DNA from: an uncultured Oscillospiraceae bacterium
GTDB taxonomy: Bacteria; Bacillota; Clostridia; Oscillospirales; Ruminococcaceae
Reading direction: 5' to 3'
DNA: 64,000 nt
Assembly: GCA_964622315.1 (NCBI GenBank)
Contig: CAZUOY010000004.1
Span: forward strand, 2,064-66,063
Of the stretch, positions 15,382 through 46,775 are shown piece after piece. A program made the position numbers and the translations under genes. The notes under the pieces were generated by a model that saw nothing but the letters and a program-made list of their open reading frames with translations, searched no databases and had not been told where the DNA came from. Every line of letters begins with the position of its first letter. Position 1 is the stretch's first letter.

Positions 15382-15430
15382 GGAAAACAAAGTAAGCACA
15401 GTATTCAACAACAATTTGGGAGGAAAAGAA

Positions 15431-27234: not shown

Positions 27235-27414
27235 ATGAGAGCGACAGGTATAGTAAGAAGGATAGACGACCTCGGACGGGTGGTAATACCTAAGGAGATA
27301 CGGCGCACGATGCGGATTCGCGAGGGCGAGCCGCTTCTGACAACATTGACAAGGGAAGAAAGCTTCTGCATAGCCATCAATAATTTCTACCGCCGCTGCG
27401 TAAAGACGAGCTGA
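27235..27414 (+). pseudogene. spoVT: spoVT 5' segment (AbrB-type DNA-binding domain, codons 1-34) fused to 25 element-encoded codons
   Basis: Translation MRATGIVRRIDDLGRVVIPKEIRRTMRIREGEPL then LTTLTREESFCIAINNFYRRCVKTS-stop. Below the ORF-track length cutoff; found by reading the + strand under the spurious minus ORF 27187..27525. Confidence 0.85.
27323..27336 (+). repeat. attL core (14-bp direct repeat)
   Basis: AGGGCGAGCCGCTT, in the codons for EGEPL of spoVT. Confidence 0.8.
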
Positions 27415-28868: not shown

Positions 28869-29963
28869 TTAATGGTTATCTATGTGTTGGAGTCCTTCAC
28901 ACAAAATGTTCTGTGCGGCGTTTTGGTCGCGGTCGCATTCAAAACCGCAATTCGGGCAAAAGTATACCCTCTGAGAAAGAGAAAAAGTTGGAAGGATGTT
29001 TCCGCAAGCAGAGCATCGCTTTGTGCTCGGAAAGTACTGCGAACACTTAACAAGAATGCCGCCGGTGTCCTTTTGCGCATTGATTATTTTTTTCTCAAAA
29101 CTAACAGGGGCGTTATCGCGCATTTTAGCAGAGAGTGATGGGTTGGTTTCTTGCATTTTGTGAAAATTTAAAGTCTCTGTGCAAATAACATCGTGAGTTT
29201 CCGCGAGTCTCCGAGCTTCTTTGAATTGCCAATCTTTGCGCTGATTCTTAATATGTTGCTCAAGCTTATCGATTTTCCTGAAGGTTTCATTCCAGCGACG
29301 ACTACCTTTTTTCTTATGAGATAGAAGTTCATAAAGAGCATTAAGTCTTTCTCGCTCCGCCGCTCGGAAATGAGGACAGTCTCCCGACATGCCATTAGAG
29401 TCCACGTAAAGACCATCCTGTTTATAATCAAGCCCTATAGCAGTTTTCGTATTAATTGTTTTTTTCGGCGGGTCGTTATCGAAGCAGACAAGGACCGAAA
29501 TATAGTACTGCTTTAAAATCTTTCGATGACAAAGAGTAACCTTAACGATTTTTCCGTCTGTGGGGATAGGACGATGCAAATTGATTTCAACGTCGCCGAT
29601 TCCTTCAAGCTGTATATTTTCTTCGTCTATTAATGAGTACGTAAGGACATAGGATTTGAGTGTCCTCCATTGACCACGCTTATACAGGTAGTGTTTTCCA
29701 AACTTCTCCTCGCTTTTAATAGATTTGACGATATCTTTAATGATAAATTTTGCTGTGATTTCATCCACATCAAATCGGTCGTCAACGTTAAATTCCTCGA
29801 CCCATTGAATACGCTCTGGGAATTCTAATCCGCAATCCCGACAAGCGATAGCGAAGTCAATTATTGTATTGTATAAGAAATCCGCAGCTTTGAATCTCGC
29901 TGAGATAAGATTTTCCTGCTCCTTGGTGGGGAAAATTCTGTATTCAAAGTTTCTATAAAACAT
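28869..29963 (-). CDS. tnpB: TnpB (IS200/IS605-family OrfB, RuvC-like RNA-guided nuclease), no adjacent tnpA
   Basis: N-terminus FYRNFEYRIFPTKEQ. RuvC triad candidates IGLDYK, ICTETLNF and CDRDQNAAQNI. Zinc ribbon CSACG..CPNCG. ATG 29963 follows a GGAGGT RBS. Confidence 0.85.
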   Translation of the reverse strand: MFYRNFEYRIFPTKEQENLISARFKAADFLYNTIIDFAIACRDCGLEFPERIQWVEEFNVDDRFDVDEITAKFIIKDIVKSIKSEEKFGKHYLYKRGQWRTLKSYVLTYSLIDEENIQLEGIGDVEINLHRPIPTDGKIVKVTLCHRKILKQYYISVLVCFDNDPPKKTINTKTAIGLDYKQDGLYVDSNGMSGDCPHFRAAERERLNALYELLSHKKKGSRRWNETFRKIDKLEQHIKNQRKDWQFKEARRLAETHDVICTETLNFHKMQETNPSLSAKMRDNAPVSFEKKIINAQKDTGGILVKCSQYFPSTKRCSACGNILPTFSLSQRVYFCPNCGFECDRDQNAAQNILCEGLQHIDNH

Positions 29964-30075
29964 AATTACCTCCGCAAAAATGTTATACGAATAATCATCT
30001 TGAGAGAATAATAACAAAAATGTGACGTTGTGTCAATACATTTGTTCAAAATATGATTATATTCGTCACAATCGC

Positions 30076-30366: not shown

Positions 30367-30459
30367 AACGTTCAATACAATTAATTAAAACGTTGAATAG
30401 TTCAGCGGTTCATGAGTAATAGTACTAAACTGGAATTATTGCGCAAGGAAGGGCAGACG

Positions 30460-31830
30460 ATGAATAAGCAACAACTCGCAGCAAAAATATGGGAATCCGC
30501 AAATAAAATGCGTTCCAAGATTGAGGCAAATGAGTATAAAGACTATATTCTGGGTTTTATTTTTTATAAATTCCTGTCTGATAAAGAGGTTAAATATCTA
30601 AAGAGTATCGGATACACAGACAGTTCGATAAAACAAGTAGCAGAAGATATCCCGGAAGTAGTAGAGAATGTGCAAAATAACATAGGATACTTTATTGCAT
30701 ATGATAATCTTTTTTCAACATGGCTTGAGATAGGCGCAGATTTTAATGTATCAAATGTTCGTGATGCACTAGCAGCTTTTAATAGGCTTATCAGTTCATC
30801 GCATAAGAAGGTATTTGAAAAGATTTTCGATACTCTGCAAACTGGTCTGTCTAAACTTGGCGATACTTCTGGGACACAGACGAAGTCTATTAGTGACTTA
30901 ATACACCTAATCAAAGACATTCCAATGGATGGAAGACAAGACTACGATGTTCTTGGATTCATCTATGAATATCTAATCTCCAACTTTGCTGCCAATGCAG
31001 GAAAGAAAGCCGGAGAGTTCTACACTCCGCACGAAGTGTCGTTGCTGATGTCGGAAATAGTAGCTAATCACTTAAAGGAAAGGTCAGAAATTAAGATTTA
31101 TGACCCTACCAGCGGGTCGGGGTCATTGCTTATTAATATAGGCAAATGTATAGCAAAATACATGGGCGACGGTGACAGAATAAAGTATTATGCGCAAGAG
31201 CTTAAAGAAAACACATATAACTTGACACGCATGAATTTAATTATGCGTGGAATAATTCCTTCTAATGTTGTTACAAGAAACGGTGACACTCTGGAAGAAG
31301 ACTGGCCATATTTTGATGAAAGTGACCCTGTAGGTACTTATGACCCGTTATATGTTGATGCCGTTGTTTCAAATCCCCCCTATTCTCAAAACTGGAATCC
31401 CGGAGATAAGGAGAACGACCCAAGATATAAGCGTTATGGTGTCGCACCTAAGGGAAAAGCAGATTACGCATTTCTGTTGCATGACCTGTACCACATTAAA
31501 CCTGATGGAATTATGACCATTGTTCTTCCGCATGGAGTGTTGTTCCGCGGTGGCGAAGAAGCTGCCATTCGTAAGAATTTGATTGAGAACAACAATATAG
31601 ATACTATAATTGGTTTGCCTGCGAATATTTTCTTTGGTACCGGCATACCCACAATTATCATGGTATTAAGACAAATCCGTAGCAACAATGATGTGCTTAT
31701 AATTGATGCTTCAAAAGGATTTGAAAAGGTAGGAAAGAACAATAAGTTACGAGCTTCGGACATTAAAAGAGTTGTTGATGTTGTAACGAAGAGAGAAACT
31801 GTTGATAAGTACAATAACAAGCGATTTTAG
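30460..31830 (+). CDS. hsdM: Type I restriction-modification methyltransferase subunit HsdM, 3'-truncated and orphan (no hsdS/hsdR)
   Basis: HsdM_N block LAAKIWESANKMRS..EYKDYILGFIFYKFLSD, AdoMet motif IYDPTSGSGSLL, catalytic SNPPYS. Ends ..ETVDKYNNKRF where family members normally continue about 40-50 aa (..NDYNLNI.RYV). Confidence 0.75.
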   Translation: MNKQQLAAKIWESANKMRSKIEANEYKDYILGFIFYKFLSDKEVKYLKSIGYTDSSIKQVAEDIPEVVENVQNNIGYFIAYDNLFSTWLEIGADFNVSNVRDALAAFNRLISSSHKKVFEKIFDTLQTGLSKLGDTSGTQTKSISDLIHLIKDIPMDGRQDYDVLGFIYEYLISNFAANAGKKAGEFYTPHEVSLLMSEIVANHLKERSEIKIYDPTSGSGSLLINIGKCIAKYMGDGDRIKYYAQELKENTYNLTRMNLIMRGIIPSNVVTRNGDTLEEDWPYFDESDPVGTYDPLYVDAVVSNPPYSQNWNPGDKENDPRYKRYGVAPKGKADYAFLLHDLYHIKPDGIMTIVLPHGVLFRGGEEAAIRKNLIENNNIDTIIGLPANIFFGTGIPTIIMVLRQIRSNNDVLIIDASKGFEKVGKNNKLRASDIKRVVDVVTKRETVDKYNNKRF

Positions 31831-32551: not shown

Positions 32552-33551
32552 ATGAAGAAAGCAAAAACGAACGAAGAATATCTGAGGGAGGCTAAGGATT
32601 CCCGCTTCCGCGAACTCAACAAAATTGGTACATCGAAAAAGCAGGCACGCGATGAGTACAACGAATGGCGGAAGGAGGAGGTGAGAAAAAACGGTAAGCC
32701 GATACCGACAGATTATGCGCCATCTCCGTACATCCACGGTCTTGGTACGCTAAAGCAGTACAATGCAATTTCAGAACATTATATTACTTACATAGTAGAG
32801 AATCATCCCGAAGCTTACAAGCTGTCGTATTGCTTTAAGCATGGATTTGCACACGAATATATTCAGACCCTTATTGATAAAGGTCAGAGCGCTTGGAGTA
32901 TAGCCCGTGCCCGCGCGGCTCTTGCGAAGCTGCATGGAAAAACAGGTCCCGAAATCCATAATGACATCCCTCGCCGCGAAGCTGAAGACATCACTAAAGG
33001 CAGAATGTCAGAACTTGAATATGCTGCCGCATTGAATGAGTATGGCGACATGGTTGCATTTGCACGCTGTGTCGGAGTTAGAAGTGCCACATTCGTCACG
33101 CTGACGCCGGATTGTTTTAAAACAGACAACGAAGGGAACCTTTTTCTCCACCTTGACGGTAAGCTTAATAATACCAAGGGGGGGGAAAACCTTCGATGTA
33201 GAAATTATTCCGACAAATCAGAAGTACGTCAGAGACTATATTTCGAAGCATAACCACGATGAACTGCTTTTTCCTGAAGTGCCGAGCCACTTAAATCTGC
33301 ATGGAGTTCGTGCATTCTTCGCAAAGGACTTCTACAATTTCTATGCGCGCGATATTGATGAAATAAAAAACAATAGGACAAAATATAAAGGAAGTATGAG
33401 AAGTGCAATCTACACTCGGAGAATTGAAGGCTTGAAGCCGAGTGAGCAGCCTTCTTATGATTTTGAGGCACTGTTGAGGATGTCAAGGTCGCTTGGTCAC
33501 GAGAGGGTGTGCACCTCAATTGTGCATTATCTCTACAACGTTGACGATTAG
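32552..33551 (+). pseudogene. Tyrosine recombinase/integrase interrupted by a +1 frameshift in a G8 homopolymer (33178-33185)
   Basis: ORFs 32552..33253 and 33153..33551 overlap. Removing one G gives ..LHLDGKLNNTKGGKTFDVEIIP... Catalytic signature CVGVRSAT (Arg), LHGVRAFF (H-x-x-R), LGHER..IVHYL (His, Tyr). Confidence 0.75.
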
Positions 33552-33889: not shown

Positions 33890-34870
33890 ATGAATAATAG
33901 TAAGGACGACACATTAAACTCTTTTCTTGATAGGTCTGAAAAAAAGATAAAAACGTTTAAATATAGTGTAACTGATAAACAATGGAATGAACTTGTAGGG
34001 TTTTATAATTACCTTACTTTTTGGGTTAATGGTTATCAACAGTTGCTTTATTATCTCCGAGAAAGACAGAATCTTGTTGAATTACATCGCACTGGTATAC
34101 CTATCACCTTATATATACATGATAAATACCACGAGGCAACAGCAGAGGTAATAAGTCAGTATCGTACTTTTTTTGAACATAGTAAGCAATTGCTAAATGC
34201 TTTTGTAGTTTTGCTCGGTCATATAATTGCAGACCATGAATTCAACAGAGTAAAAACCAGTAGTTTCGGAAAATGTATAAATTCATTTAGTAATGTTTCA
34301 GAATTCAATAATAAGTGTTTGAATAAACTTAAGGCATTATTTACTAAAGTTGGAAAGTTGATTGACAATACTATCTGTGAATATCGTGATAAACATGTTG
34401 AGCACGCAAAACTGTTAGGAGTAGGCGTAGCTCGAACATTCGGAGACTCGATGGTGTTAATTCACGATAAAGATGAAACACCTCCAATGTTATATCCCAT
34501 AGAAAAGGTAAAAGGTGTTTCGCGAATGTCAATATTCATTGATTACATAGGGATTCAGAGTACAAATGGAGGTACAGACTATATCTATCATATTAAGTCA
34601 AACAAAAATAAAGGAGATAGCGTTAGAACTGGTGAATGCATTGGACCCGCTTATGTAGATAGTTCTGGTATACACTTTGAAGAATATGGAAAGCACTATC
34701 ATGAATTTTCGTCAGAGAGTCGCAAGGTGCTCTATCCAGTTGCTTCACCAATACATAAAGGAACCACTTCACCGAAATCCGATGATTCTTTTGATATAAT
34801 GTGTTGTTTTATAGAAGAATGTTTGGGTATACTTTCTGAGTATGTCAAATCCTCCTCTGACAAAGAATAG
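33890..34870 (+). CDS. Hypothetical protein A of orphan cassette (helical N half, beta-rich C half)
   Basis: Strong RBS AAGGAGAAATT before the ATG; AT-rich codon usage. The only motif-like element is YRDKHVEH (R-x5-H) at aa 165-172. Confidence 0.6.
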   Translation: MNNSKDDTLNSFLDRSEKKIKTFKYSVTDKQWNELVGFYNYLTFWVNGYQQLLYYLRERQNLVELHRTGIPITLYIHDKYHEATAEVISQYRTFFEHSKQLLNAFVVLLGHIIADHEFNRVKTSSFGKCINSFSNVSEFNNKCLNKLKALFTKVGKLIDNTICEYRDKHVEHAKLLGVGVARTFGDSMVLIHDKDETPPMLYPIEKVKGVSRMSIFIDYIGIQSTNGGTDYIYHIKSNKNKGDSVRTGECIGPAYVDSSGIHFEEYGKHYHEFSSESRKVLYPVASPIHKGTTSPKSDDSFDIMCCFIEECLGILSEYVKSSSDKE

Positions 34871-34967: not shown

Positions 34968-36095
34968 ATGAAAAGCAACGAATTAATTGAAGGGTTTGCT
35001 AATTGTTTCATCTGTATTAGTTATAAATTGCATGATGATACTTACGGGGATTATCGACATTCAACAGCTTGTACTTTTACCAAATATGACCGGAATATTA
35101 ACATGTTTCCATCAGTTGAATCAACTAAAAGCAAAATGGAAATTGAAAAACTCTTGGACCATTTATACTCTATTCTTCCTGCGTTAAGAATAATTATAGA
35201 TAGAGATATTTACTTGCAAAGAGTTTTGCATTCCGTTGATACTATTTGGAGAAGCATCTTTAACGGTTTAAAAAACGCTTTTGATAAAGATATTTTAAAT
35301 GATGTTTCTATTATGTTCCCCTTTCTAAGAGCACATGGTTTGGGTGGGCATCCGTTGCTGTCTTTTCCATTGATTGTAAATTATCGAACGGGAGAACAAG
35401 AATTATGGGTAATTGAACCAATTCCAACAATTATTGACAATTCTCGCGAAAATGGAACTGAAGAAGCTATGTCTTTTGATACATTAGAAGACTACACGAT
35501 AAATTGTGACACATTAATGAGAACATCTCGTTTTATAGATTCATCTATATACAGTTACCCTCTGGATAATCCAAATGCTGACTGTAAGCATGTGCAGATT
35601 CATGAATCCTATATTTTGAAAAAACTATTAGAACACAGTTTTAAAATAGAATTAGGTGACGATAGAGTTAAAAAATGTGTAACAACCCAAGGCTTAGTTA
35701 CACCCACAAGAATGAAGAAATCATCGAGTATTACAATAACTTTCAATTCTGAAACTATCTTGATGGGAATTAACCAAGTGGAGTTTGATGCCTACCGACA
35801 AAAAGCAATAAAAGCCATCGTAGAAACCTGCATATATCGCAGCGTTTATTTTGGATTTATGGAAACTGAACAAATCACTCAATCTGAAAGTACTTCAATT
35901 CGAATTTACGAACAACTTAACAGAGCACGTTTTCTGAAGAAAATAGCTAAACCAAATTCTGTGGTTTTACCTCCAGCAAGCATAGAAAGCATAAATAGTT
36001 ATCTCCAAATAGAACAAATGAAAAATGTGCGCAATGCTTCTGAAATTGCAGGCACTCTTTTGGGAGCTGCATATAATCAAATTGAACCACCTTAA
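34968..36095 (+). CDS. Hypothetical protein B of orphan cassette
   Basis: RBS AAAGGGAAATTT before the ATG. Same strand and composition as protein A. No recognisable motif. Confidence 0.6.
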   Translation: MKSNELIEGFANCFICISYKLHDDTYGDYRHSTACTFTKYDRNINMFPSVESTKSKMEIEKLLDHLYSILPALRIIIDRDIYLQRVLHSVDTIWRSIFNGLKNAFDKDILNDVSIMFPFLRAHGLGGHPLLSFPLIVNYRTGEQELWVIEPIPTIIDNSRENGTEEAMSFDTLEDYTINCDTLMRTSRFIDSSIYSYPLDNPNADCKHVQIHESYILKKLLEHSFKIELGDDRVKKCVTTQGLVTPTRMKKSSSITITFNSETILMGINQVEFDAYRQKAIKAIVETCIYRSVYFGFMETEQITQSESTSIRIYEQLNRARFLKKIAKPNSVVLPPASIESINSYLQIEQMKNVRNASEIAGTLLGAAYNQIEPP

Positions 36096-36126: not shown

Positions 36127-36714
36127 TTACGCCAACTCCTTCTCAAAGCTTGGCATCTCCGCCCGTATCATCTTCCTCGCTTTCGTGAGGTCACCCGATA
36201 CCCACTCGTCGAGCTTGTCGGAGGGGATAATCACGGGCATACGGTGGTGGACGTCCTTCGTCGATTCGTTCGCCTCGGTCGTGAGTATCACGAATCTGCG
36301 CTCGCCGTCGAACTCATCCCATACACCCGCCATATAGATAACATCGTCCTTTGGTAGAGTAAAGAGGTATTTATCCTTCTTGCTCTTTCCCGTATCCTTC
36401 CATTCAAAAAAGCCCGTCGCAGGTACGACGCATCTGTTGTTCTCGAATCCGTTCGAGAACATTTTCTTTTCTGTGATGCTTTCACTGCGAGCGTTAACGA
36501 TAACGCCCTTGCCCGTGAAGTGGGGATAGCCCCAAGAGATAAGCTCAGCCGTACATTCCTTGCCGTCAGAGACGAGCACAGGTGCCTTGTCGGTGGGGTA
36601 AATCTCACCCTCTTTGACGGTGGCTTTCCCGTGATACTTCTCGTTAACCTCTTTGATTATCTGCATATATTCCTCGCGGTCATCGTCCGACGAAAACATA
36701 TATCTCCCGCACAT
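36127..36714 (-). CDS. SOS response-associated peptidase (SRAP/YedK family)
   Basis: N-terminal MCGRY with catalytic Cys2; PATGFFEW and HHRMPVI blocks. Confidence 0.85.
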   Translation of the reverse strand: MCGRYMFSSDDDREEYMQIIKEVNEKYHGKATVKEGEIYPTDKAPVLVSDGKECTAELISWGYPHFTGKGVIVNARSESITEKKMFSNGFENNRCVVPATGFFEWKDTGKSKKDKYLFTLPKDDVIYMAGVWDEFDGERRFVILTTEANESTKDVHHRMPVIIPSDKLDEWVSGDLTKARKMIRAEMPSFEKELA

Positions 36715-36775
36715 AGTGTCGCTCCTTCAATAAATATGTCTAAAGTATTCCCGAAATATTTAGAAATATTTCCTG

Positions 36776-36804
36776 TTTACATTTTACCACGGCGGATATA
36801 TAAT
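36776..36804 (+). promoter_or_regulatory. Promoter of the Y-family polymerase gene
   Basis: TTTACA - 17 nt - TATAAT. Confidence 0.55.
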
Positions 36805-36819
36805 TGAAACACAAAAAAA

Positions 36820-36831
36820 GAACAAATGTTC
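36820..36831. promoter_or_regulatory. LexA (Cheo) box GAAC-N4-GTTC
   Basis: aGAACAAATGTTCt lies 15 nt downstream of the -10. It matches the Firmicute LexA operator consensus CGAACnnnnGTTCG at the core. Confidence 0.7.
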
Positions 36832-36849
36832 TCACTGGAGCTGATTTTT

Positions 36850-38091
36850 TTGGAAAGGACAATTTTGCATTGTGATTTAAATGGGTTTTACGCTTCGGTG
36901 GAATGTTTTTACCACCCCGAGCTGAGACCTTTTCCTGTTGCTGTGGCGGGAGACCCCGAACAGCGGCATGGAATTATTCTTGCCAAAAACAGCGTGGCAA
37001 AGAAGTACAACATCAAGACGGGTGAGGCGATATGGCAGGCGAAACGCAAGTGCCCGAATCTAATCTGCCTTACTCCAAACTATGACCTATATGCAAAGCA
37101 CTCGCAGTTGGCAAGGGAGATTTATCAGGAGTATTCCGACAAGGTAGAAAGCTTCGGACCTGACGAGTGTTGGCTTGACGCTACGGGCGGAGTAGCTTCT
37201 TTTTCTGATGGCAAGCTTCTTGCCGACGAGATAAGGGAACGAATCAAGGCAGAGCTTGGGATAACCGCTTCGGTAGGAGTGAGCTTCAATAAGATATTCG
37301 CGAAGCTCGGCTCGGACTACAGAAAGCCAGACGCGACGACGGTAATCTCCGAGCAGAACTTCAAGGAAATCGTCTGGCCGTTGAGCGCGAACGATATGAT
37401 ATATGTCGGTCCCTCTACGGCGAGAAAGCTTGAGCGGTTCGCCATTCATACTCTTGGAGATGTAGCGAACGCCGATGTGGAGTTTCTTAAAAACAGGCTC
37501 GGCAAAGCGGGGGTTGTCCTGTGGCAATGGGCGAACGGTAAGGACTATTCACAGGTGCGGCAGTATCAAGCTTCGCCCGAAATCAAGAGCATAGGCAACA
37601 GCACTACCGCACCGCACGACCTCGCGACGGATAACGATATACGAATTACACTTAGACTTTTGAGCGAAAGTGTGGCGTCAAGACTTCGTGACGGCAACTA
37701 CCGCTGTCGGACGGTGCAGGTATCTATGCGGCAGACCGACCTATTCTATTACGAACGACAGATGGCGTTACCGTACCCGACAGCAGAGAGCGAAAGCATC
37801 TACGAGGCGGCGTACAGGCTTTTATGCAAGCACTCGTTCGAGGAGAAGCCGCTTCGCTCGGTTGGAGTGCGGGGAATGAACCTCGTGGACGATTCGGTCA
37901 CTCAGCTTAGTTTGTATCCTGAAATTCAGGCAATGCAGCAACAGGAGGAGCTTGAGCGGGCGATAGATTCACTCCGTAACCGCTTTGGCTTTCAGATAGT
38001 CAAACGCGGGCTTATGATGACCGACAACGCTCTATCTGCGCTTGACGCGAAGGGCGACCACACGGTGCACCCCGAGAGCTATTTTCGTTAA
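36850..38091 (+). CDS. dinB: Y-family DNA polymerase (DinB/ImpB-MucB-SamB family)
   Basis: ILHCDLNGFYASVE, SVGVSFNKIFAKLGSDYRKPD and little-finger region. TTG 36850 with GGAG 9 nt upstream is preferred because ATG 36826 lies inside the LexA box. Confidence 0.85.
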   Translation: MERTILHCDLNGFYASVECFYHPELRPFPVAVAGDPEQRHGIILAKNSVAKKYNIKTGEAIWQAKRKCPNLICLTPNYDLYAKHSQLAREIYQEYSDKVESFGPDECWLDATGGVASFSDGKLLADEIRERIKAELGITASVGVSFNKIFAKLGSDYRKPDATTVISEQNFKEIVWPLSANDMIYVGPSTARKLERFAIHTLGDVANADVEFLKNRLGKAGVVLWQWANGKDYSQVRQYQASPEIKSIGNSTTAPHDLATDNDIRITLRLLSESVASRLRDGNYRCRTVQVSMRQTDLFYYERQMALPYPTAESESIYEAAYRLLCKHSFEEKPLRSVGVRGMNLVDDSVTQLSLYPEIQAMQQQEELERAIDSLRNRFGFQIVKRGLMMTDNALSALDAKGDHTVHPESYFR

Positions 38092-38530: not shown

Positions 38531-38703
38531 GCGGTGATAGATATATAATAATAAGTTCTGCGTAGCGAATTGCTCCTTATTGACAAAAAACGACAAAAAC
38601 AAACCCATATGTTGTTATTTTGTTTAAAAACGGTGTATAATGGGGATGTTCTTGTAATCGCAATTAAGATTCAGCGGATAATAAAGTCAAAGAGGAAAGT
38701 ATA

Positions 38704-40509
38704 ATGGGATATCAAGCAAAATTGCAGAAAGTACATATTAAAAACTTTAGGTCAATAGTTGACGAAACGATTTATTTTGATAATTTTAATATTTATGTGG
38801 GACTCAATGATTGTGGAAAATCAAATGTTCTGAAAGCATTAAATCTTTTTTTTAATGGGCAAACTGAAAATGGTCATTTGCTTGATTTCCCCCGAGATTA
38901 TGCTCAACATGGTAAGACGGGAAAAGGAAAAGCTAAAGAAATTGTAATAGAAATCAGCCTAATTATACCAGATAATTTTAAAGAGGCCGGAATAAAATCT
39001 TGGAAAAAAGTTTGGCGCGATAATGATTTGTTTAGTGATAACTTATCTGAAATTGTTGATGAATATTCAAAATGTACAACTTTACTTAAAAGAATCAAGT
39101 TTGAGTATATTCCTGCCGTAAAAAGTGAATCTTTCTTTCAAGAACTCTTACTTGAATTATACAATTCAATGACAATTTCCGCAGATAGTGCACTCCATAC
39201 AGCAAACTTGGAGTATTCTAAAGCTCTAACTGAGCTTACTCAAAATTTAAGTGAAAATGTCAAAAATAAAGTAGGTTTAGACTCAAGCGTAATGATGCCT
39301 GACAAGCTTTCAGTTCTATTTAGAAATTTAAAAATTAATACAAAAGATGAAAACATTAAGGATATTGATTTAAATCATCGTGGTGATGGGATAAAAGCTC
39401 GCCATATACCATCAATATTATTAACAATTGCCCATAATATTAAGAACTCAAGAAAAAGGAATTCTGTTGATTATTCATTTATATGGGGCTACGAAGAACC
39501 AGAAAATGGAGTTGAGTTTTTTGCTTGCTCGCAATTAGCTGATGAACTGTACTCATATTCAAAAGAGTTACAATTAATAATAACAACCCATTCACCAGCC
39601 ATATATTCAAAAAGCAATATGCAAGACTGCAAATGCTATTATGTGTATAAAACAGAATGTGGTGACTCAAAGTACGATACAAATTATAGTTTTATTGAGT
39701 TAAATAAAAATATAGGCTTAATGCCATTAATTGCTCCTTACGTTCAAGATTTTCAAAAAGTGATAGAAGAGAGGAGCAGTGCAATAAGTTCTTTAGAAGA
39801 AGAGAACAAGCGCATAAATCAGATGACAAATCGTGTAATTCTATATACAGAGGGAAAAACGGATGTTAAATATCTCAAAAAGGCTTTTGAAACATTTAAA
39901 GAATATGGAGATGTCTCGCATAGAATTGAGTATTATGATATAGAAAATGCACGGTTTACAGGGGACGGTGAACTCAAGAAAATTTTTGATTACTTACAAA
40001 AAGGTAATGATTCCAATATTAAGATTATGATGTTCGATAGGGATGTTGAAGACAAAATTATAGAGTACGAATTTGAAAAGGGACAAAACAAAGTGTATCG
40101 CTTTAATATTCCTATTCCACCCCACCGTAAATCTAATGACAAGATTTCAATAGAACATTTTATTGAAGATGATAATTTGTCAGTGGTTGATACGATGGGA
40201 CGACGCTTGTTCATGGCAAAAGATTTCGATTATAAGGGAATCTCATTAGATGGAAAATACACATTTAACCATGCTAAGAATCCGTTAGACGCTAAATACA
40301 ATCCTCTGGAAATAATTAATGGTTCTGCAGATAAAAAAGTCTTTAGTGTTAATCCTAACGATAATAAAAACTATGCAATGTCCAAGGATGACTTTGTTAA
40401 TCATATAATTAATGAGGATGAGGGCTTCTGCTTTGATTTATCTGTATACAAACTAATCTTAGATTTAATATGCAGAATTATTGCAGATGCAGATACGAGT
40501 AAAACATAA
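38704..40509 (+). CDS. OLD-family-like ABC ATPase fused to a Toprim-like C-terminal domain (class-1 OLD or fused PARIS AriA-AriB-like)
   Basis: IKNFRSI..VGLNDCGKSNVLKAL (Walker A), YEEPENGV (Walker B), IITTHSP (H-loop). C-terminal VILYTEGKTDVKYLK and IMMFDRDVED (Toprim-type E ... DxD). 601 aa, AT-rich. Confidence 0.65.
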   Translation: MGYQAKLQKVHIKNFRSIVDETIYFDNFNIYVGLNDCGKSNVLKALNLFFNGQTENGHLLDFPRDYAQHGKTGKGKAKEIVIEISLIIPDNFKEAGIKSWKKVWRDNDLFSDNLSEIVDEYSKCTTLLKRIKFEYIPAVKSESFFQELLLELYNSMTISADSALHTANLEYSKALTELTQNLSENVKNKVGLDSSVMMPDKLSVLFRNLKINTKDENIKDIDLNHRGDGIKARHIPSILLTIAHNIKNSRKRNSVDYSFIWGYEEPENGVEFFACSQLADELYSYSKELQLIITTHSPAIYSKSNMQDCKCYYVYKTECGDSKYDTNYSFIELNKNIGLMPLIAPYVQDFQKVIEERSSAISSLEEENKRINQMTNRVILYTEGKTDVKYLKKAFETFKEYGDVSHRIEYYDIENARFTGDGELKKIFDYLQKGNDSNIKIMMFDRDVEDKIIEYEFEKGQNKVYRFNIPIPPHRKSNDKISIEHFIEDDNLSVVDTMGRRLFMAKDFDYKGISLDGKYTFNHAKNPLDAKYNPLEIINGSADKKVFSVNPNDNKNYAMSKDDFVNHIINEDEGFCFDLSVYKLILDLICRIIADADTSKT

Positions 40510-40869
40510 TTTTACATTAATGAAATTTATTTATATTAATTAAAACAATTTTTGTATACATGAGATACAAATACATAAATAACCCAGAAGGGAAAGCAAC
40601 TTTGCGGTGCGATATTTTACAGTATTTATTTTTTCATTCAAGAGCGTGATTAATGATAAATAGGATGTAATAATCAATTTGGTGATTGGTAGGATGTTGT
40701 TTATAAGTGAATTCAACCCCAAACTATTGCGCTTGGGAACACATTGTGTTAGCCGACTATATAGAATAAGGTTTTTACAGTTATCGAATATATTGTGTGA
40801 TGAGTTGTAAGCATTTAGGCTAAAATGTTATAATAATGAAAAGTAAAACCCTCATGCAGGGAAAAATGA

Positions 40870-41124
40870 ACCGAACCCTTACCTCAACTATCAAACATTC
40901 ATGTATCAAATGATATGCGCGGGCAAGGAATCGGTAAGGAATTATTCAACATGGCAAAGGCATGGGCGAAAAATAGGCAGGCGGATAAACTATATATTTC
41001 TGCCCATTCCTCAGTCGAGAGTCAGGCTTTCTATAAAGCTATGGGGTGCGAAGAGGCGGCGGAATATAATTAACAGCTGGCGGAAAAAGAGCCCTGCGAC
41101 TGTCAAATGGAGTGCGTGTTATAA
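40870..41124 (+). pseudogene. GNAT acetyltransferase remnant: 5'-truncated with an in-frame TAA at 41071
   Basis: Frame shifted from ORF 40901..41167. It reads ..LSNIHVSNDMRGQGIGKELFNMAKAWAKNRQADKLYISAHSSVESQAFYKAMGCEEAAEYN-stop-QLAEKEPCDCQMECVL. The R/Q-x-x-G-x-G AcCoA motif is present and the N-terminal half is absent. Confidence 0.7.
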
Positions 41125-41495: not shown

Positions 41496-42884
41496 ATGTT
41501 TATCGGAAGAAACAGCGAGCTTGATACGCTAAATAAGCTTTACAGTTCCGAAAGGTTCGAGTTTGCGGTTATCTACGGCCGCCGCCGCGTCGGGAAAACC
41601 GCGCTTATTAATGAGTTTATCAGCGACAAAAGGGCGATATACTTTATGGGCGTTGAGAGCAACGAAAAACAGAACCTCGAAAATTTCAGTAAAAGCGTGA
41701 TTGAATTCAGTTCGGGGATAGCCGCCGAGACTTCGTTTTTATCGTTTCAGCACGCTATTGAGTATGTTTTTGAGCTTGCGAAAAAGGAACGGATTATACT
41801 CGCGATTGACGAGTATCCGTATGTTGCGCGGGCGTCAAAAAGTCTCGCTTCTACGCTCCAGTTACTGATTGACAAAAACAAAGATACATCGAAGCTGATG
41901 CTTATACTCTGCGGCTCTTCTATGTCATATATGGAGGACAACGTTCTCGCTTATAAGGCACCGCTGTACGGAAGAAAAACCGCGCAGATAAAGCTCCTTC
42001 CCTTTAGCTTTTGGGAAACCTGCAGATATTTTACCGGCTTTTCCGCTGAGGACAAGGCGCTGATATACGGTATTGTCGGAGGAACGCCGCAGTATCTTCT
42101 TCAGATGAACGATAGCCTGAGCGTAGCGGAGAATATAAAGAACACTTTTTTGAATCCGACCTCGTCGCTGTATGAGGAGTCCGAAAACCTTCTGAAGCAA
42201 GAGGTTCGCGAGCCGTCGCTTTACAACGCGATTATCACGGCGATAGCTAACGGAGCTACTCGAATGTCTGAAATATCAGGCAAAGTGGGCGAAGACACCA
42301 ACGTATGCTCGACCTATCTCAAGAATCTCACAACTCTCGGAATAGTTAAAAAGGAAACACCTTACGGCGAAAAGGTTTCTCACAAATCGATATACTCTAT
42401 TGAAGACAATATGTTTAAGTTTTGGTATCGCTTTGTGCCGGAGAACAATTCGTTAATAGCGCGCGGAGCGGCGGAGCTTGCATACAAACGCATTGAGCCG
42501 CACCTTAACGAATATATGGGAAAGATATTTGAGGATATCTGCGCTCAATACCTATGGCGTCGGCTTCTTTCGGGGAGCTGTCCCGTTCGGTTTTCTTCTC
42601 TCGGCAGATGGTGGGGAAACGACCCGAACGAGAAAAAGCAGACAGAGATAGATATTATGGGCGAGCAGGACAAGAGTACTGCGCTTTTTGCGGAGTGTAA
42701 ATGGACGAACGAAAAGGTAGACGAAGAGGTCCTCGGCACGATTATAAAGCGAAGTAAACTTTTCGGCTATACGAAGACGCACCTGTTTTTATTTGCTAAG
42801 AGTGGGTTTACAAAAAGCTGTGAGGTCAAAGCCGCCCAGCTCGGAAATGTCACGCTTGTTAATTACAAAGATATGATTGAATGA
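41496..42884 (+). CDS. ATP-binding protein (archaeal-type ATPase domain plus DUF234)
   Basis: FIGRNSEL..L.......FAVIYGRRRVGKTALI Walker A, ILAIDEYPY Walker B, C-terminal EIDIMGE..ALFAECKW DUF234-like block. Confidence 0.8.
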   Translation: MFIGRNSELDTLNKLYSSERFEFAVIYGRRRVGKTALINEFISDKRAIYFMGVESNEKQNLENFSKSVIEFSSGIAAETSFLSFQHAIEYVFELAKKERIILAIDEYPYVARASKSLASTLQLLIDKNKDTSKLMLILCGSSMSYMEDNVLAYKAPLYGRKTAQIKLLPFSFWETCRYFTGFSAEDKALIYGIVGGTPQYLLQMNDSLSVAENIKNTFLNPTSSLYEESENLLKQEVREPSLYNAIITAIANGATRMSEISGKVGEDTNVCSTYLKNLTTLGIVKKETPYGEKVSHKSIYSIEDNMFKFWYRFVPENNSLIARGAAELAYKRIEPHLNEYMGKIFEDICAQYLWRRLLSGSCPVRFSSLGRWWGNDPNEKKQTEIDIMGEQDKSTALFAECKWTNEKVDEEVLGTIIKRSKLFGYTKTHLFLFAKSGFTKSCEVKAAQLGNVTLVNYKDMIE

Positions 42885-44603: not shown

Positions 44604-46775
44604 ATGGCGAAAGCTACAGAGAACATCGCGGCATATATGCGTATTTCGGTAGATACCGAAGCGGATAGAGATAACACTTCTATTGAAAACCAACGAGCTA
44701 TAATTAAAGCCTATATAAAGAATAGGTTTTCCGATGTACAGACGACATATTATGAAGACCGCGACCGCAGCGGATACACCTTCAAACAGCGAGAAGGATA
44801 TCAAAGCATGCGGCCGCTATTACTAAGCGGAAAACACAACATCTTAATAGTAAAAGACCTTTCACGATTTTCCCGCAGAAACAGCCGCGGACTTGTTGAG
44901 CTGGAGGATTTGCGTGACGCGGGCGTCAGGATTATTTCGATTGATGACTGTATCGACTATCCGACCCGTGATGAGTGGCAGCAAATTCAGTTTAAATTTT
45001 TGATGAATGAAATGCCGGTAACTGATGCGTCTCGCAAGGTGAAAAGCGTTATTAACCGCCGACAGAACGACGGCAAATGGATTTGCAGCGTTCCCTTCGG
45101 TTATGTCATAACTAATACAAAAAACATGACGGTATCCGTTGATGAAAAATCTGCCGAGATTGTCAGATTAGTTTTTAATAAGTACCTTGAAGGTTGGGGC
45201 TATAAAAAAATAGCGAATTTTTTAACTGATAAGAATATGCCGACTCCGCGTGCTGTTGAAAAAGAATTCAGAGAAGCCGACGGAACTGTTACAAACATAA
45301 AACCCAAGGATACATGGTCGATTGCAACGGTTCAGGGAATATTGAAAAACGATTTCTATATCGGAACCCTCCGCCAGAGAAAGTACACTCGAAAGAATAT
45401 CAACGGTAAGGATATGAAGCTTGACGAGGAAGAAAACATAGTCTTTGAAAACCATCACGAGGCTATTATAGATTATCGGACCTTTTCAAAAGTTCAGCAA
45501 CAGCTGGTTAGCCGTTCGAAAAACAACTATCGAGGTGTTTCGAAGTATCCGACGGTATATTCGGGATTCCTTTTCTGCGGCGACTGCGGAAGTCCGATGT
45601 TCTCCATGAGCCGTCCCGATTTGCCTGCGGCGTATACATGCGGAAGCTATCATAGACGCGGCAAAAAGGGATGCTCATCACATCACATCAGAGTCGACGC
45701 AATGGACAGCATCCTTAAAATGTATGTGAAAAAAGTATTAGAGAACTCAAAGGAAATGATAGCCCAGCTTGAAAAGTCCATTGCTCAAGAGCCTGATAAG
45801 CTTAAATCAAGCACCTCGACTGTTGAAGCGTTGGAAAAGGACCTTGAGAAAGCTAAGGATGTTTTGAAGAATACCCTGAAGCAGAAGGTTAAAGAAATTA
45901 CCGCGCACCCCGACATGGAGGAAGTGCTTTCGGAAACCTTTGATTCAATGATTGAAGAAGCTGACAAAAAAATCAAGGGAATCGAGAATCAAATTACTCT
46001 CGTGGCCGATAAGCGCAATGTGATTATTCACACCAACAGAATTGCGAAGACAGCGCTTGAGATTTTCAACGACATTATTAATAAGCCTGCGTTAGACAAA
46101 AACGATTTAGAGGTTATAATCAATCGTATGGTTGTTTACGAGGACCATGTTGATATTGAGCTAAAGTCCGATATTGATATGCTGATAAAGACCGGCTCTC
46201 TCACAGAGGAAAGGGAAATGGCAACGGCAACGGTAAATTTTAAGTGGGACACCGACAGTATCTTAAGAGCCAAAGCAGTCCTAAAACAGCGAAATAAGAG
46301 GGACGAGGCTATCGGTGTCAATGTTATCAGTAAGGGCGAGCCGCTTGAGATTTTCACAAGCGGCGACGGAGACGTTATCTTCAGAAAATACTCGACCATG
46401 AACGAGCTTGCAAACTGCGCTGATAAGTATGCCGAGGTGCTGTTTTCGTCAATAAAGCAGCCCGTCATCGTCTGCGACAGGGACGCGGTATGCGCGGCGT
46501 ATCCCTCAAAGAAGAAGGAGCTTGTCGGCAAGCGGATAAGCGAGGAGCTTGAGGAAAAGATACGTGGGCGCGATTCCGCGGTGATGGGCGAGGGTATTTT
46601 CTGCCTTAGCAACTATAAGGAAAAGGCGAGCGTGGTCGTACCCGTGCGAGCGGCTGGAAGCGCTATAGGATGTATCGCGGTCTTACAGTCCGATTCGTCA
46701 AAAAAGGTGGAAGACAAGGACATCTCTATGCTCGAAACCGCGTCTAAGCTGCTCGGTGCGCAGACGGAGAGCTGA
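44604..46775 (+). CDS. Large serine recombinase; the ORF continues without a stop across attR into the spoVT 3' segment (chimeric 723-aa ORF)
   Basis: Resolvase N domain (AAYMRISVDTE..NQ), recombinase domain, zinc ribbon CGDCGSPM..CGSYHRRGKKGC and coiled-coil region. The last ~142 codons are SpoVT C-terminal sequence. Confidence 0.88.
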   Translation: MAKATENIAAYMRISVDTEADRDNTSIENQRAIIKAYIKNRFSDVQTTYYEDRDRSGYTFKQREGYQSMRPLLLSGKHNILIVKDLSRFSRRNSRGLVELEDLRDAGVRIISIDDCIDYPTRDEWQQIQFKFLMNEMPVTDASRKVKSVINRRQNDGKWICSVPFGYVITNTKNMTVSVDEKSAEIVRLVFNKYLEGWGYKKIANFLTDKNMPTPRAVEKEFREADGTVTNIKPKDTWSIATVQGILKNDFYIGTLRQRKYTRKNINGKDMKLDEEENIVFENHHEAIIDYRTFSKVQQQLVSRSKNNYRGVSKYPTVYSGFLFCGDCGSPMFSMSRPDLPAAYTCGSYHRRGKKGCSSHHIRVDAMDSILKMYVKKVLENSKEMIAQLEKSIAQEPDKLKSSTSTVEALEKDLEKAKDVLKNTLKQKVKEITAHPDMEEVLSETFDSMIEEADKKIKGIENQITLVADKRNVIIHTNRIAKTALEIFNDIINKPALDKNDLEVIINRMVVYEDHVDIELKSDIDMLIKTGSLTEEREMATATVNFKWDTDSILRAKAVLKQRNKRDEAIGVNVISKGEPLEIFTSGDGDVIFRKYSTMNELANCADKYAEVLFSSIKQPVIVCDRDAVCAAYPSKKKELVGKRISEELEEKIRGRDSAVMGEGIFCLSNYKEKASVVVPVRAAGSAIGCIAVLQSDSSKKVEDKDISMLETASKLLGAQTES
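46333..46346 (+). repeat. attR core (14-bp direct repeat)
   Basis: AGGGCGAGCCGCTT, identical to 27323-27336 and in the same codon phase. Confidence 0.8.
46347..46775 (+). pseudogene. spoVT: spoVT 3' segment (linker plus GAF-like C-terminal domain, codons 35-176)
   Basis: EIFTSGDGDVIFRKYS..KYAEVLF..VIVCDRD..SKKKELVGKRIS..GSAIGCIAVLQS..ETASKLLGAQTES parallels the remembered B. subtilis SpoVT sequence. Confidence 0.85.

What the first reader, a model, noticed from the sequence alone, without database searches (positions are those of the whole stretch)
38704..40509. Single-gene ABC-ATPase/Toprim fusion: class-1 OLD or fused PARIS-like defence protein
The N-terminal ~340 aa carry Walker A (GLNDCGKSN), Walker B (YEEPENG) and H-loop (TTHSP) in the AAA_15/AAA_21 arrangement. 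After a coiled linker, the C-terminal part has VILYTEGKTDVKYLK and IMMFDRDVED, the E...DxD pattern of Toprim nucleases. The EGKTD wording resembles what I recall for DUF4435/AriB-type Toprim. No helicase partner (as in Gabija) is adjacent. The gene is very AT-rich and is followed by ~360 bp of junk-like AT-rich DNA ending at a truncated GNAT gene.
Basis: partly seen in the sequence, partly recalled or inferred. Interest (0 to 1): 0.65.

Follow-up and report, generated by a model that had tools for sequence, protein, structure and literature searches.

The report
OLD-like ATPase–Toprim defence nuclease gene
One 601-residue gene on a mobile island joins an ABC-type ATPase to a metal-dependent Toprim nuclease of the kind otherwise fused to retron reverse transcriptases; it is most likely a single-gene anti-phage nuclease, an uncharacterised branch of the well-known OLD-type family, not a new kind of system.

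Summary
The ORF (38704-40509, +, 601 aa) and every quoted motif are real and conserved in more than 100 full-length homologues.

**Domains**
- Residues 1-340 are an ABC ATPase (Pfam AAA_15/AAA_21). Its closest solved relatives are GajA and Thermus OLD, not AriA.
- Residues 376-601 have no Pfam hit: not OLD-like_TOPRIM and not DUF4435.
- That region matches PADLOC's retron RT-Toprim_I-C profiles (2e-17). It is 34% identical to an annotated RT-Toprim protein.
- Its confident AlphaFold model (pLDDT 94.6) has one significant PDB match, the Toprim RNase domain of retron Eco2.
- E383, D387, D445, D447, S482, E484 and K561 occupy the Toprim two-metal motif positions.

**Classification.** The architecture is OLD-like (class 1 by context). 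The Toprim belongs to the retron I-C lineage. Fused PARIS is not supported.

**Context**
- The domain is a promiscuous effector module, also fused to other ATPases, methylases, RTs and STAND NTPases.
- There is no conserved partner gene.
- Homologues recur between hsdS and hsdR of type I R-M operons and inside DISARM.
- The window copy is cargo of a ~19-kb element inserted in spoVT.

**Likely function (inferred).** An ATPase-gated abortive-infection nuclease, probably acting on RNA/tRNA.

**Verdict.** A new variant of a known kind, of moderate interest.

The parts
38612..38641 (+). promoter-like site TTGTTA-18-TATAAT in the 174-nt gap upstream of the gene
   Evidence: Weak: the number of such sites in the region equals the shuffle expectation.
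38692..38696 (+). ribosome-binding site GAGGA, 7 nt before the ATG
   Evidence: read directly from the sequence
38704..40509 (+). complete ORF, 601 aa: ABC ATPase, linker helix, Toprim nuclease
   Evidence: End-to-end alignment with more than 100 homologues.
38704..39735 (+). ABC ATPase domain (aa 1-344) with a helical insert at aa ~142-250
   Evidence: Pfam AAA_15 2.7e-18 and AAA_21 7e-10. PDB profile hits GajA 1.8e-10 and TsOLD 1.9e-9. AF2 model.
38800..38826 (+). Walker A, GLNDCGKSN (K39)
39379..39390 (+). RGDG (aa 226-229), a near-invariant motif at the position of the ABC signature
   Evidence: Conservation, position. The assignment as signature motif is inferred.
39490..39510 (+). Walker B, YEEPENG (E264/E265)
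39583..39597 (+). H-loop, TTHSP (H296 invariant)
39733..39828 (+). long linker helix, aa 344-375; the most variable segment of the family
39829..40506 (+). Toprim nuclease domain of the retron type I-C lineage (aa 376-601)
   Evidence: PADLOC RT-Toprim_I-C 2.2e-17. Profile versus PDB finds only Eco2. AF2 pLDDT 94.6, and Foldseek finds only Eco2, E 1.9e-5, TM 0.52. 34% identity to Haur_5150 RT-Toprim, E 1e-26.
39850..39864 (+). Toprim motif IV, EGKTD (E383, D387); aligned by HMMER to Eco2 E374/D378
40036..40044 (+). Toprim motif V, DRD (D445, D447)
   Evidence: Invariant. Equivalence to Eco2 D460/D462 is inferred from motif order and.
40147..40155 (+). SIE (S482, E484), putative second-metal ligands
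   Evidence: E484 invariant. Equivalence to Eco2 S513/E515 is inferred (PMC12405507).
40384..40386 (+). K561, the conserved lysine of the C-terminal extension
   Evidence: Invariant. Aligned to Eco2 K546. A catalytic role is inferred.
40510..40869 (.). AT-rich non-coding spacer (GC 0.30) with no terminator-like hairpin
40870..41073 (+). 3' remnant of a GNAT acetyltransferase gene; context only, not part of the system
27322..27335 (.). left copy of the 14-bp direct repeat AGGGCGAGCCGCTT, inside the 5' part of spoVT: one end of the ~19-kb element that carries the gene
46332..46345 (.). right copy of the same 14-bp repeat, at the junction between the serine recombinase ORF and the 3' part of spoVT

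Best explanation
The gene encodes a stand-alone, OLD-like anti-phage nuclease carried as cargo on a mobile element. The N-terminal ABC ATPase has an intact Walker A, Walker B and H-loop, plus a helical insert that probably mediates dimerisation. It most likely acts as the infection sensor and gate. The C-terminal domain is a two-metal Toprim nuclease (E383/D445/D447 at one metal site; D387/S482/E484 at the other; K561). It belongs to the lineage otherwise fused to retron type I-C reverse transcriptases. In the resting state the nuclease is held inactive. A phage cue sensed through the ATPase licenses cleavage, and the cell or the phage is arrested (abortive infection, or second-line defence). 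The cue may be an anti-restriction or other anti-defence protein, given how often homologues sit inside R-M and DISARM operons. The most likely substrate is RNA, especially tRNA. This is because the nearest characterised relative, the Eco2 Toprim, is an RNase that nicks tRNA acceptor stems, and because P2 Old and AriB are also tRNA nucleases. Shown here: the domain architecture, motif conservation, fold, homology, modularity and genomic contexts. Inferred: the defence role, the gating by the ATPase, the trigger and the substrate.
For: ATPase: Pfam AAA_15 and AAA_21. PADLOC AriA, Old and GajA at 1e-18 to 1e-20. The PDB profile search ranks GajA and TsOLD first.

Whole-protein fold: GajA 2.8e-16 over 546 columns, TsOLD 2.3e-15 over 504 columns, then the Eco8 OLD protein. 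hhalign to P2 Old is collinear over aa 5-401, placing YTEGKTD on P2's VEGKTE.

Toprim: RT-Toprim_I-C profiles at 2.2e-17. Eco2 is the only PDB hit by sequence profile and by fold. 34% identity over 235 aa to an RT-Toprim protein, E 1e-26. The catalytic residues are invariant across 79 family members and across 82 proteins of unrelated architecture.

Effector-module behaviour: 1489 clusters carry the domain. It is fused to AAA_21 and AAA_15 ATPases, N6_N4 methylases, RTs, NB-ARC/NACHT, SIR2 and Cas_APE2256.

Defence context: homologues lie between hsdS and hsdR (L010, L089-092, L013) and inside DrmMII-DrmD-[X]-type III MTase-type III REase-DrmA clusters (L004-006, L085, L093-094, L027). The window copy sits next to a PDC-S27-like gene on a 19-kb integrative element. 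DNA similarity between loci stops at the gene borders.

Function of relatives: Eco2 Toprim RNase/tRNase (PMC12916289, PMC12405507); P2 Old tRNA nuclease (PMC12445682); AriB (PMC11464382); HEC-04, a validated single-gene ABC ATPase-Toprim defence (bioRxiv 10.1101/2024.01.29.577857).
Against: There is no experiment on this family. No expression data exist: only DNA metagenomes hold the sequence.

Eco2 proper is a distant relative. The profile E-value is 3e-4, TM is 0.52, and pairwise BLAST to Ec67-family proteins gives about 1e-3. Transfer of substrate specificity is therefore weak. Other OLD proteins (TsOLD, Vc OLD, GajA) cut DNA.

R-M or DISARM embedding was seen in only about 7 of 18 contexts examined, and not in the window itself.

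The canonical OLD Toprim and DUF4435 profiles do not match. An OLD-family protein with a non-defence role exists (Cran1, PMC12796447).
Confidence: 0.68

Rival explanations
1. Same architecture and same defence role, but the Toprim cuts DNA, as in classical OLD enzymes: it nicks or degrades phage or host DNA rather than RNA.
For: The overall fold is closest to GajA and TsOLD, which are DNA nucleases. Vc OLD is a DNA nickase (PMC12392090). Embedding next to DNA-targeting R-M and DISARM systems is compatible with a DNA substrate.
Against: The Toprim domain on its own matches neither the OLD or GajA Toprims nor PF20469. Its only characterised relative is an RNase (PMC12916289, PMC12405507). P2 Old itself is now shown to act on tRNA (PMC12445682).
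Confidence: 0.25
2. It is a merged PARIS protein (AriAB): an AriA-type ATPase fused to a DUF4435 Toprim, triggered by anti-restriction proteins such as Ocr, and cleaving tRNA-Lys.
For: The best PADLOC hit of the N-terminus is AriA (72 bits). The EGxxD motif and the 62-residue spacing from E to DxD are the same as AriB E26 to D88 (PMC11464382). A C. perfringens plasmid protein carrying the same Toprim scores with PADLOC AriAB at 2.9e-35.
Against: There is no DUF4435 hit. There is no AriB or AriAB hit on aa 101-344 or aa 345-601. Solved AriA scores 1.2e-3, against 1.8e-10 for GajA. No PARIS chain appears among the top 50 fold matches of either model.
Confidence: 0.06
3. It is not a defence gene. 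It would instead be a stabilisation (addiction) or DNA-processing function of the mobile element, or a housekeeping OLD-like nickase like archaeal Cran1.
For: The gene lies on an integrative element next to SOS and repair genes (SRAP, Y-family polymerase). Cran1 shows that OLD-family proteins can have non-defence roles (PMC12796447).
Against: The distribution is patchy and the gene moves as a single unit between unrelated contexts. It recurs inside R-M and DISARM operons. The same Toprim is fused to typical immune sensors such as STAND, SIR2 and retron RT. There is no conserved partner and no conserved position on the element.
Confidence: 0.08
4. The C-terminal domain is a TIR-like NADase rather than a Toprim nuclease.
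For: The PADLOC profile RT-TIR_XII matches aa 361-529 at 2.5e-11. TIR and Toprim are both small parallel-sheet alpha/beta folds.
Against: The same RT-TIR_XII profiles also match a bona fide RT-Toprim_I-C protein at 1e-151 over its full length, so the profile is not specific. The invariant residues follow the Toprim pattern (E-G-x-x-D, D-x-D, S-x-E, K). The only significant fold match is the Eco2 Toprim; a TIR-STING chain scores E 0.31.
Confidence: 0.03

Closest known systems
Retron-Eco2 (Ec67) and other type I-C RT-Toprim fusion proteins (effector domain only)
   Same: The Toprim lineage is the same. It shares motif IV TEGKTD, motif V DxD, an S-x-E motif, and a C-terminal helical extension with a conserved Lys. 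Eco2 is the only significant sequence-profile and fold match in the PDB. The domain is 34% identical to the Herpetosiphon RT-Toprim and matches the PADLOC RT-Toprim_I-C profiles.
   Different: There is no reverse transcriptase, no ncRNA or msDNA, and no Rfam hit. The regulator is an ABC ATPase instead of an msDNA cage. Eco2 proper is only distantly related and has large insertions.
Class 1 OLD nucleases (P2 Old, Thermus scotoductus OLD, Vc OLD)
   Same: One polypeptide with an N-terminal ABC ATPase carrying a helical insert and a C-terminal Toprim, and no partner gene. The full-length fold match to TsOLD is 2.3e-15. hhalign to P2 Old is collinear through the EGKT(D/E) motif.
   Different: The Toprim does not match Pfam OLD-like_TOPRIM, whereas P2 Old does. 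Beyond motif IV there is no detectable sequence similarity to the P2 Old Toprim. Motif IV is EGxxD rather than EGxxE.
HEC-04 / IbfA (single-gene ABC ATPase-Toprim defence found embedded in Hma systems)
   Same: The concept is the same: a single-gene ABC ATPase fused to a Toprim, found embedded in larger restriction-like systems. HEC-04 is experimentally protective, and both of its active sites are needed (bioRxiv 10.1101/2024.01.29.577857; PMC12111858).
   Different: No HEC-04 profile appears in the complete PADLOC lists for aa 101-344 or aa 345-601, nor in the top 25 for the whole protein. tblastn against plasmids finds no Salmonella IbfA-type hit. It is therefore a different family.
PARIS (AriA/AriB; merged AriAB)
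   Same: An ABC ATPase plus an EGxxD-type Toprim. The effector is a tRNA nuclease. It acts as a second line of defence triggered by anti-restriction proteins.
   Different: DUF4435, AriB and AriAB profiles are not matched. The ATPase is closer to GajA and TsOLD than to AriA.
PrrC (anticodon nuclease inside the EcoprrI hsd operon); functional analogy only
   Same: Family members occupy the same slot between hsdS and hsdR. They also combine an ABC-type NTPase with a latent nuclease.
   Different: The nuclease domain is unrelated. The window copy is not inside an R-M operon. No interaction with R-M proteins has been shown.

Membership tests
OLD family (ATPase-Toprim nucleases, general) | N-terminal ABC ATPase with Walker A, Walker B and H-loop | tested here: met
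   Pfam AAA_15 and AAA_21. Motifs are invariant or near-invariant. GajA and TsOLD are the top PDB hits.
OLD family (ATPase-Toprim nucleases, general) | C-terminal Toprim with an invariant Glu, Gly and DxD | tested here: met
   E383, G384, D445 and D447 are invariant. The fold matches the Eco2 Toprim. The full-length fold matches TsOLD and GajA.
OLD family (ATPase-Toprim nucleases, general) | Match to the OLD-type Toprim sequence profile (Pfam PF20469) | tested here: not met
   No hit for the whole protein or for the C-terminus alone at E up to 10. The positive control, P2 Old, scores 1.2e-17.
OLD family (ATPase-Toprim nucleases, general) | Dimerisation domain inserted in the ATPase | tested here: inconclusive
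   A helical insert at aa ~142-250 is predicted, but at pLDDT 58-70. No multimer model was made.
Class 1 OLD | Stand-alone gene without a conserved partner | tested here: met
   No helicase, RT or DUF4435 neighbour. Neighbours differ in every context, and DNA similarity ends at the gene borders.
Class 2 OLD / Gabija | Adjacent UvrD-like helicase GajB | tested here: not met
   The neighbours are small ORFs plus a Y-family polymerase upstream, and a GNAT remnant plus an ATPase_2/DUF234 gene downstream.
Class 3 OLD / retron I-B | Adjacent retron RT and ncRNA | tested here: not met
   None of the larger ORFs scanned in 26-47 kb has an RVT_1 domain. No Rfam family is found in 26-48 kb.
PARIS / merged AriAB (class 4) | DUF4435 (PF14491) Toprim, or a match to the AriB or AriAB profile | tested here: not met
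   AriA in the PDB scores only 1.2e-3.
Retron type I-C (RT-Toprim) | [quoted passage not shown] | tested here: met
   motif definitions from PMC7736814.
Retron type I-C (RT-Toprim) | Reverse transcriptase domain fused N-terminally, with an msr-msd ncRNA upstream | tested here: not met
   The N-terminus is an ABC ATPase. No Rfam RNA is found.
HEC-04 / IbfA | Match to the PADLOC HEC-04 profile | tested here: not met
   Absent from the complete lists for aa 101-344 and aa 345-601, and from the 25 best hits of the whole protein. The first 100 residues were not scanned on their own.
Anti-phage defence system (any) | Protection against phage that depends on the active sites | not testable with these tools
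   Only contextual evidence is available.

The most novel reading that the evidence does not exclude
The family is a distinct, so far unnamed class of OLD-like immunity proteins. In it, an OLD-type ABC ATPase has captured the retron-I-C-type Toprim RNase. It would work as a guard embedded in (or travelling with) R-M and DISARM systems. Like PrrC and PARIS, it would be unleashed by phage anti-restriction factors and would then cut tRNA, possibly in acceptor stems as Eco2 does. If so, the same effector is controlled by msDNA in retrons and by ATP-driven sensing here.
Probability: 0.25. Interest if true: 0.6.

Novelty: new variant of a known kind. Interest (0 to 1): 0.42.

Why it matters
**An annotation gap.** More than 1,400 protein clusters carry a Toprim-type effector domain that neither Pfam nor NCBIfam recognised in the proteins scanned here. 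PADLOC matched it only through its retron RT-fusion profiles (plus a weak AbiLii hit). ATPase-fused members, such as this gene, are labelled 'AAA family ATPase'. On these profile hits, defence-finding pipelines are unlikely to call them as a system, though none was run here.

**A link between two systems.** The finding ties the recently solved Eco2 effector to the OLD and PARIS world of ATPase-gated Toprim nucleases. It also gives a simple one-gene system in which to ask how an ABC ATPase gates this nuclease and what the nuclease cuts.

**A testable idea.** The recurrent placement between hsdS and hsdR, and inside DISARM, makes the 'embedded back-up defence' idea testable for a new family.

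**Its limits.** It is not a new principle. Single-gene ATPase-Toprim defences (P2 Old, Vc OLD, HEC-04) are already established.

Tried and rejected
- **Pfam on the C-terminus alone** (two boundaries): only noise, such as DUF2812 at 0.0015, below threshold.
- **NCBIfam:** only sub-threshold N-terminal ATPase hits.
- **Word-indexed homologue search with the C-terminus alone:** returned only 12 fragments. It was replaced by the exhaustive profile search.
- **hhalign of the Toprim profile** against single sequences of the P2 Old Toprim and of an RloB: not significant. Single-sequence templates are weak, so this does not exclude remote homology.
- **Foldseek of the Toprim model against viral structures (BFVD):** nothing significant.
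- **phmmer with single ATPase or RT seeds** to classify the 145 representatives: too insensitive, 108 were left unassigned. The Pfam scan of 82 members was used instead.
- **Attempt to fetch Eco2 itself.** tblastn with an Eco2 fragment found nothing in phages and only Ec67-family homologues on plasmids. MAFFT misaligned their DxD region because of insertions. The equivalence of the DxD and SxE motifs to Eco2 therefore rests on motif order, not on a residue-level alignment.
- **RNA evidence:** only DNA metagenome runs hold the sequence.
- **Repeats, terminators and Rfam.** No flanking repeats or terminator define a cassette around the gene. There are no Rfam hits.
- **Linkage to the neighbouring PDC-S27-like ATPase:** rejected, because no homologue context repeats it.
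Full report
**Observation**

The ORF is exactly as described: 38704..40509 on the + strand, 601 aa, ATG start, with a GAGGA ribosome-binding site 7 nt upstream. All five quoted peptides are present at aa 33-41, 263-269, 294-298, 378-392 and 441-450.

A database search found more than 100 full-length relatives of 41-70% identity, nearly all unnamed or labelled 'AAA family ATPase'. In an alignment of 79 of them, several residues are invariant:
- the H-loop region: Q290, H296, S297, P298;
- the acidic residues of the C-terminal domain: E383, G384, T386, D387, D445, R446, D447, E484.

The Walker A and B residues and K561 are at least 90% conserved. The motifs are therefore under selection, not chance.

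The gene has 31% GC in a window that is 49% GC outside the island. The downstream GNAT is a 3' remnant. No helicase, RT or DUF4435 gene is adjacent.

**N-terminal half**

- Pfam gives AAA_15 (2.7e-18) and AAA_21.
- PADLOC gives AriA, Old and GajA at 1e-18 to 1e-20, all through the ATPase.
- A family profile searched against PDB sequences ranks GajA (1.8e-10) and Thermus scotoductus OLD (1.9e-9) far above AriA (1.2e-3).
- The AlphaFold2 model of the whole protein has mean pLDDT 85. By Foldseek it matches GajA (2.8e-16, 546 columns), TsOLD (2.3e-15, 504 of 512 residues) and the OLD protein of retron Eco8. PtuA, Rad50 and SMC heads follow. No PARIS chain is in the top 50.
- hhalign of the family against P2 Old is collinear from residue 5 to 401. 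It places YTEGKTD on P2's VEGKTE.

The architecture is therefore that of an OLD-family protein: an ABC ATPase with a helical insert (aa ~142-250), a 32-residue linker helix, then a Toprim.

**C-terminal half**

- Pfam finds nothing here, neither OLD-like_TOPRIM (PF20469) nor DUF4435 (PF14491), even when the domain is scanned alone. P2 Old scores 1.2e-17 on PF20469 in the same test.
- PADLOC matches five RT-Toprim_I-C profiles (best 2.2e-17), RT-TIR_XII (2.5e-11) and, weakly, AbiLii. It does not match AriB, AriAB, or the Old or GajA Toprims.
- A 26-sequence profile of the domain finds only 'Retron Ec67 protein' in the PDB. Its TEGKTD aligns on Eco2 E374/D378.
- The domain modelled alone (pLDDT 94.6, pTM 0.90) has the beta1-alpha-beta2-alpha-beta3-beta4 order of a Toprim core. 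Its only significant Foldseek matches in the PDB are two chains of the Eco2 structure 9i2f (best E 1.9e-5, TM 0.52, 260 columns). Everything else has E above 0.1.
- Directly, the domain is 34% identical over 235 residues (E 1e-26) to Herpetosiphon Haur_5150. That protein is annotated as an RNA-directed DNA polymerase and scores 3.5e-163 on RT-Toprim_I-C.

[quoted passage not shown] The window domain belongs to that lineage.

Eco2 proper is a more distant member, with large insertions. The correspondence of D445/D447, S482/E484 and K561 to the Eco2 catalytic residues (PMC12405507, PMC12916289) is therefore by motif order and by homology to closer RT-Toprims. It is not from a residue-level alignment with Eco2.

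**The domain is a mobile effector module**

An exhaustive profile search of 1.8 billion representatives found 1489 clusters at E up to 1e-3, and 560 at E up to 1e-30. Among 82 longer members, the partner domains were:

| Partner domain | Members |
|---|---|
| AAA_21 ATPase | 49 |
| AAA_15 ATPase | 34 |
| N6_N4 methylase | 8 |
| Reverse transcriptase | 5 |
| NB-ARC | 4 |
| NACHT | 2 |
| SIR2, Cas_APE2256, Roc/LRR | 1 each |

The catalytic residues stay invariant across these architectures.

The ATPase also recombines. A Sphingobium plasmid protein shares the window's ATPase (31% identity over aa 5-398, with the same RGDGIKARHIP and EEPEN motifs) but carries a different Toprim (VEGESD...DGD). 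A C. perfringens plasmid protein has this Toprim behind a PtuA/AAA_21-type ATPase. This shuffling is typical of immune effectors.

**Genomic context**

There is no conserved partner. DNA similarity between loci is confined to the gene itself. Ten contexts of family members were examined:

| Context | Count | Loci |
|---|---|---|
| Between hsdS and hsdR of type I R-M operons | 3 | L010, L089/090, L091/092 |
| Inside DrmMII-DrmD-[X]-type III MTase-type III REase-DrmA clusters | 3 | L004-006, L085, L093/094 |
| Solitary, on mobile elements or islands | 4 | includes the window copy |

Among 37 further loci from species-representative genomes:
- one family member (L013) lies in a type I R-M locus;
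- one AAA_21-type relative (L027) lies in the same DISARM-type cluster;
- five more loci show only isolated weak matches to a single R-M or DISARM gene;
- the rest show none.

Embedding is therefore recurrent but not obligatory, roughly 7 of 18 family contexts.

The window copy lies on a ~19-kb low-GC element bounded by a 14-bp direct repeat, AGGGCGAGCCGCTT, at 27322 and 46332. The element splits spoVT and carries a large serine recombinase at its right end. Its other cargo includes:
- a TnpB gene and an hsdM gene;
- a DUF6036 nucleotidyltransferase;
- an SRAP and Y-family polymerase pair;
- a PADLOC PDC-S27-like ATPase.

The sequence occurs in bioreactor, anaerobic-digester and wastewater metagenomes. 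No RNA run holds it.

**How it most likely works**

Shown here:
- an intact ABC ATPase and an intact two-metal Toprim site in one polypeptide;
- an OLD-like overall fold;
- a Toprim of the retron I-C lineage;
- defence-type contexts.

Inferred:
- the ATPase senses infection and gates the nuclease, as in P2 Old, where ATP hydrolysis activates tRNA cleavage (PMC12445682), and in HEC-04 and Vc OLD, where the ATPase is required in vivo (bioRxiv 10.1101/2024.01.29.577857; PMC12392090);
- activation causes growth arrest or abortive infection.

The substrate is uncertain, and I favour RNA or tRNA. The Eco2 Toprim is an RNase that nicks tRNA acceptor stems (PMC12916289). Its isolated Toprim is toxic and has RNase activity (PMC12405507). 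P2 Old and AriB are tRNA nucleases. DNA nicking, as in GajA or Vc OLD, is the main alternative.

The hsdS-[X]-hsdR position is the slot occupied by PrrC in the prr locus, by my own recollection of the gene order; the paper cited says only that PrrC is embedded in the EcoprrI (hsdMSR) system. Several ABC-ATPase defences are triggered by anti-restriction proteins (discussed in bioRxiv 10.1101/2024.01.29.577857). A guard role for R-M or DISARM is therefore a reasonable but untested idea. It does not obviously apply to the solitary window copy.

**Comparison with known systems**

By the context-based OLD classification (Dot et al. 2023, as summarised in PMC10568477 and PMC12796447) this is class 1. 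By the sequence of its Toprim it is not a canonical OLD, and it is not PARIS.

The nearest validated analogue in concept is HEC-04/IbfA, but no HEC-04 profile is matched.

Recent work notes at least 11 uncharacterised OLD clades (PMC12796447). This family may be one of them, or may lie just outside, given its different Toprim.

I therefore rate it a new variant of a known kind. The combination of an OLD-type ATPase with a retron-I-C-type Toprim as a free-standing gene is not described in the papers I could search, and no profile library used here recognises it as such. The principle is familiar.

**Verdict**

- Interest is moderate (0.42).

Noticed in passing
window 27235-27414 and 44604-46775; repeats at 27322-27335 and 46332-46345: The low-GC island is a ~19-kb element inserted inside spoVT. 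The AbrB-type 5' part of spoVT lies at the left end. The SpoVT_C part is fused in frame to the end of a large serine recombinase ORF at the right end. A 14-bp direct repeat, AGGGCGAGCCGCTT, marks both junctions. This looks like a skin-type sporulation-gene intervening element. No paper in the library pairs spoVT with 'intervening element'.
   Followed up: partly
window 41496-42884 (+): The ATPase_2/AAA_14/DUF234 protein just downstream matches the PADLOC candidate single-gene defence PDC-S27 (5e-66). It is not linked to the OLD-like gene in any other context.
   Followed up: partly
window 33890-34870 and 34968-36095 (+): Two adjacent low-GC ORFs (326 and 375 aa) on the same element have no Pfam or PADLOC hit at all. 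They may be another cargo or defence pair.
   Followed up: no
window 27565-28640, 28869-30017 (-), 30412-31830, 32552-33551: The left part of the element carries a DUF6036 nucleotidyltransferase with an overlapping 175-aa partner, an IS605-type TnpB, a lone type I hsdM with no intact hsdS or hsdR nearby, and two overlapping ORFs that look like one gene split by a frameshift.
   Followed up: no
PADLOC profiles RT-TIR_XII (PDLC02961/02962) against window aa 361-529 and L099:1906-3657: The 'RT-TIR_XII' profiles match this Toprim-type domain (2.5e-11). They also match a full-length RT-Toprim_I-C protein almost as well as the I-C profiles do (1e-151 against 1e-163). The TIR label of those profiles may not describe the domain they actually model.
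   Followed up: partly
L100:2995-4818 (Sphingobium pMI1) and L101:3050-4870 (C. perfringens plasmid): The modules have been swapped. The Sphingobium protein has the window's ATPase family joined to a different Toprim (VEGESD...DGD) that has no Pfam or PADLOC hit. The C. perfringens protein has the window's Toprim joined to a PtuA/AAA_21-type ATPase, and it scores with PADLOC AriAB.
   Followed up: partly
L004-L006, L085, L093-L094, L027: DISARM-like clusters (DrmMII, DrmD, DrmA) contain a complete type III R-M pair as well as the OLD-like gene between DrmD and the type III methylase. This is a three-layer nested defence locus.
   Followed up: partly
L091:12621-13782 (-): The Mogibacterium locus with the hsdS-[X]-hsdR arrangement also carries a separate RloB plus AAA_15/21 ATPase pair about 5 kb downstream. 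Two ATPase-Toprim-type systems therefore sit in one R-M island.
   Followed up: no
window 36127-38091: A divergent SRAP (SOS-response peptidase) and Y-family DNA polymerase pair lies on the element just upstream of the gene, followed by two small ORFs of 78 and 60 aa with no significant family hit.
   Followed up: no
window 15359-20260 (+): A 1633-aa protein with eight or more Listeria-Bacteroides repeat (Flg_new) domains lies outside the element.
   Followed up: no
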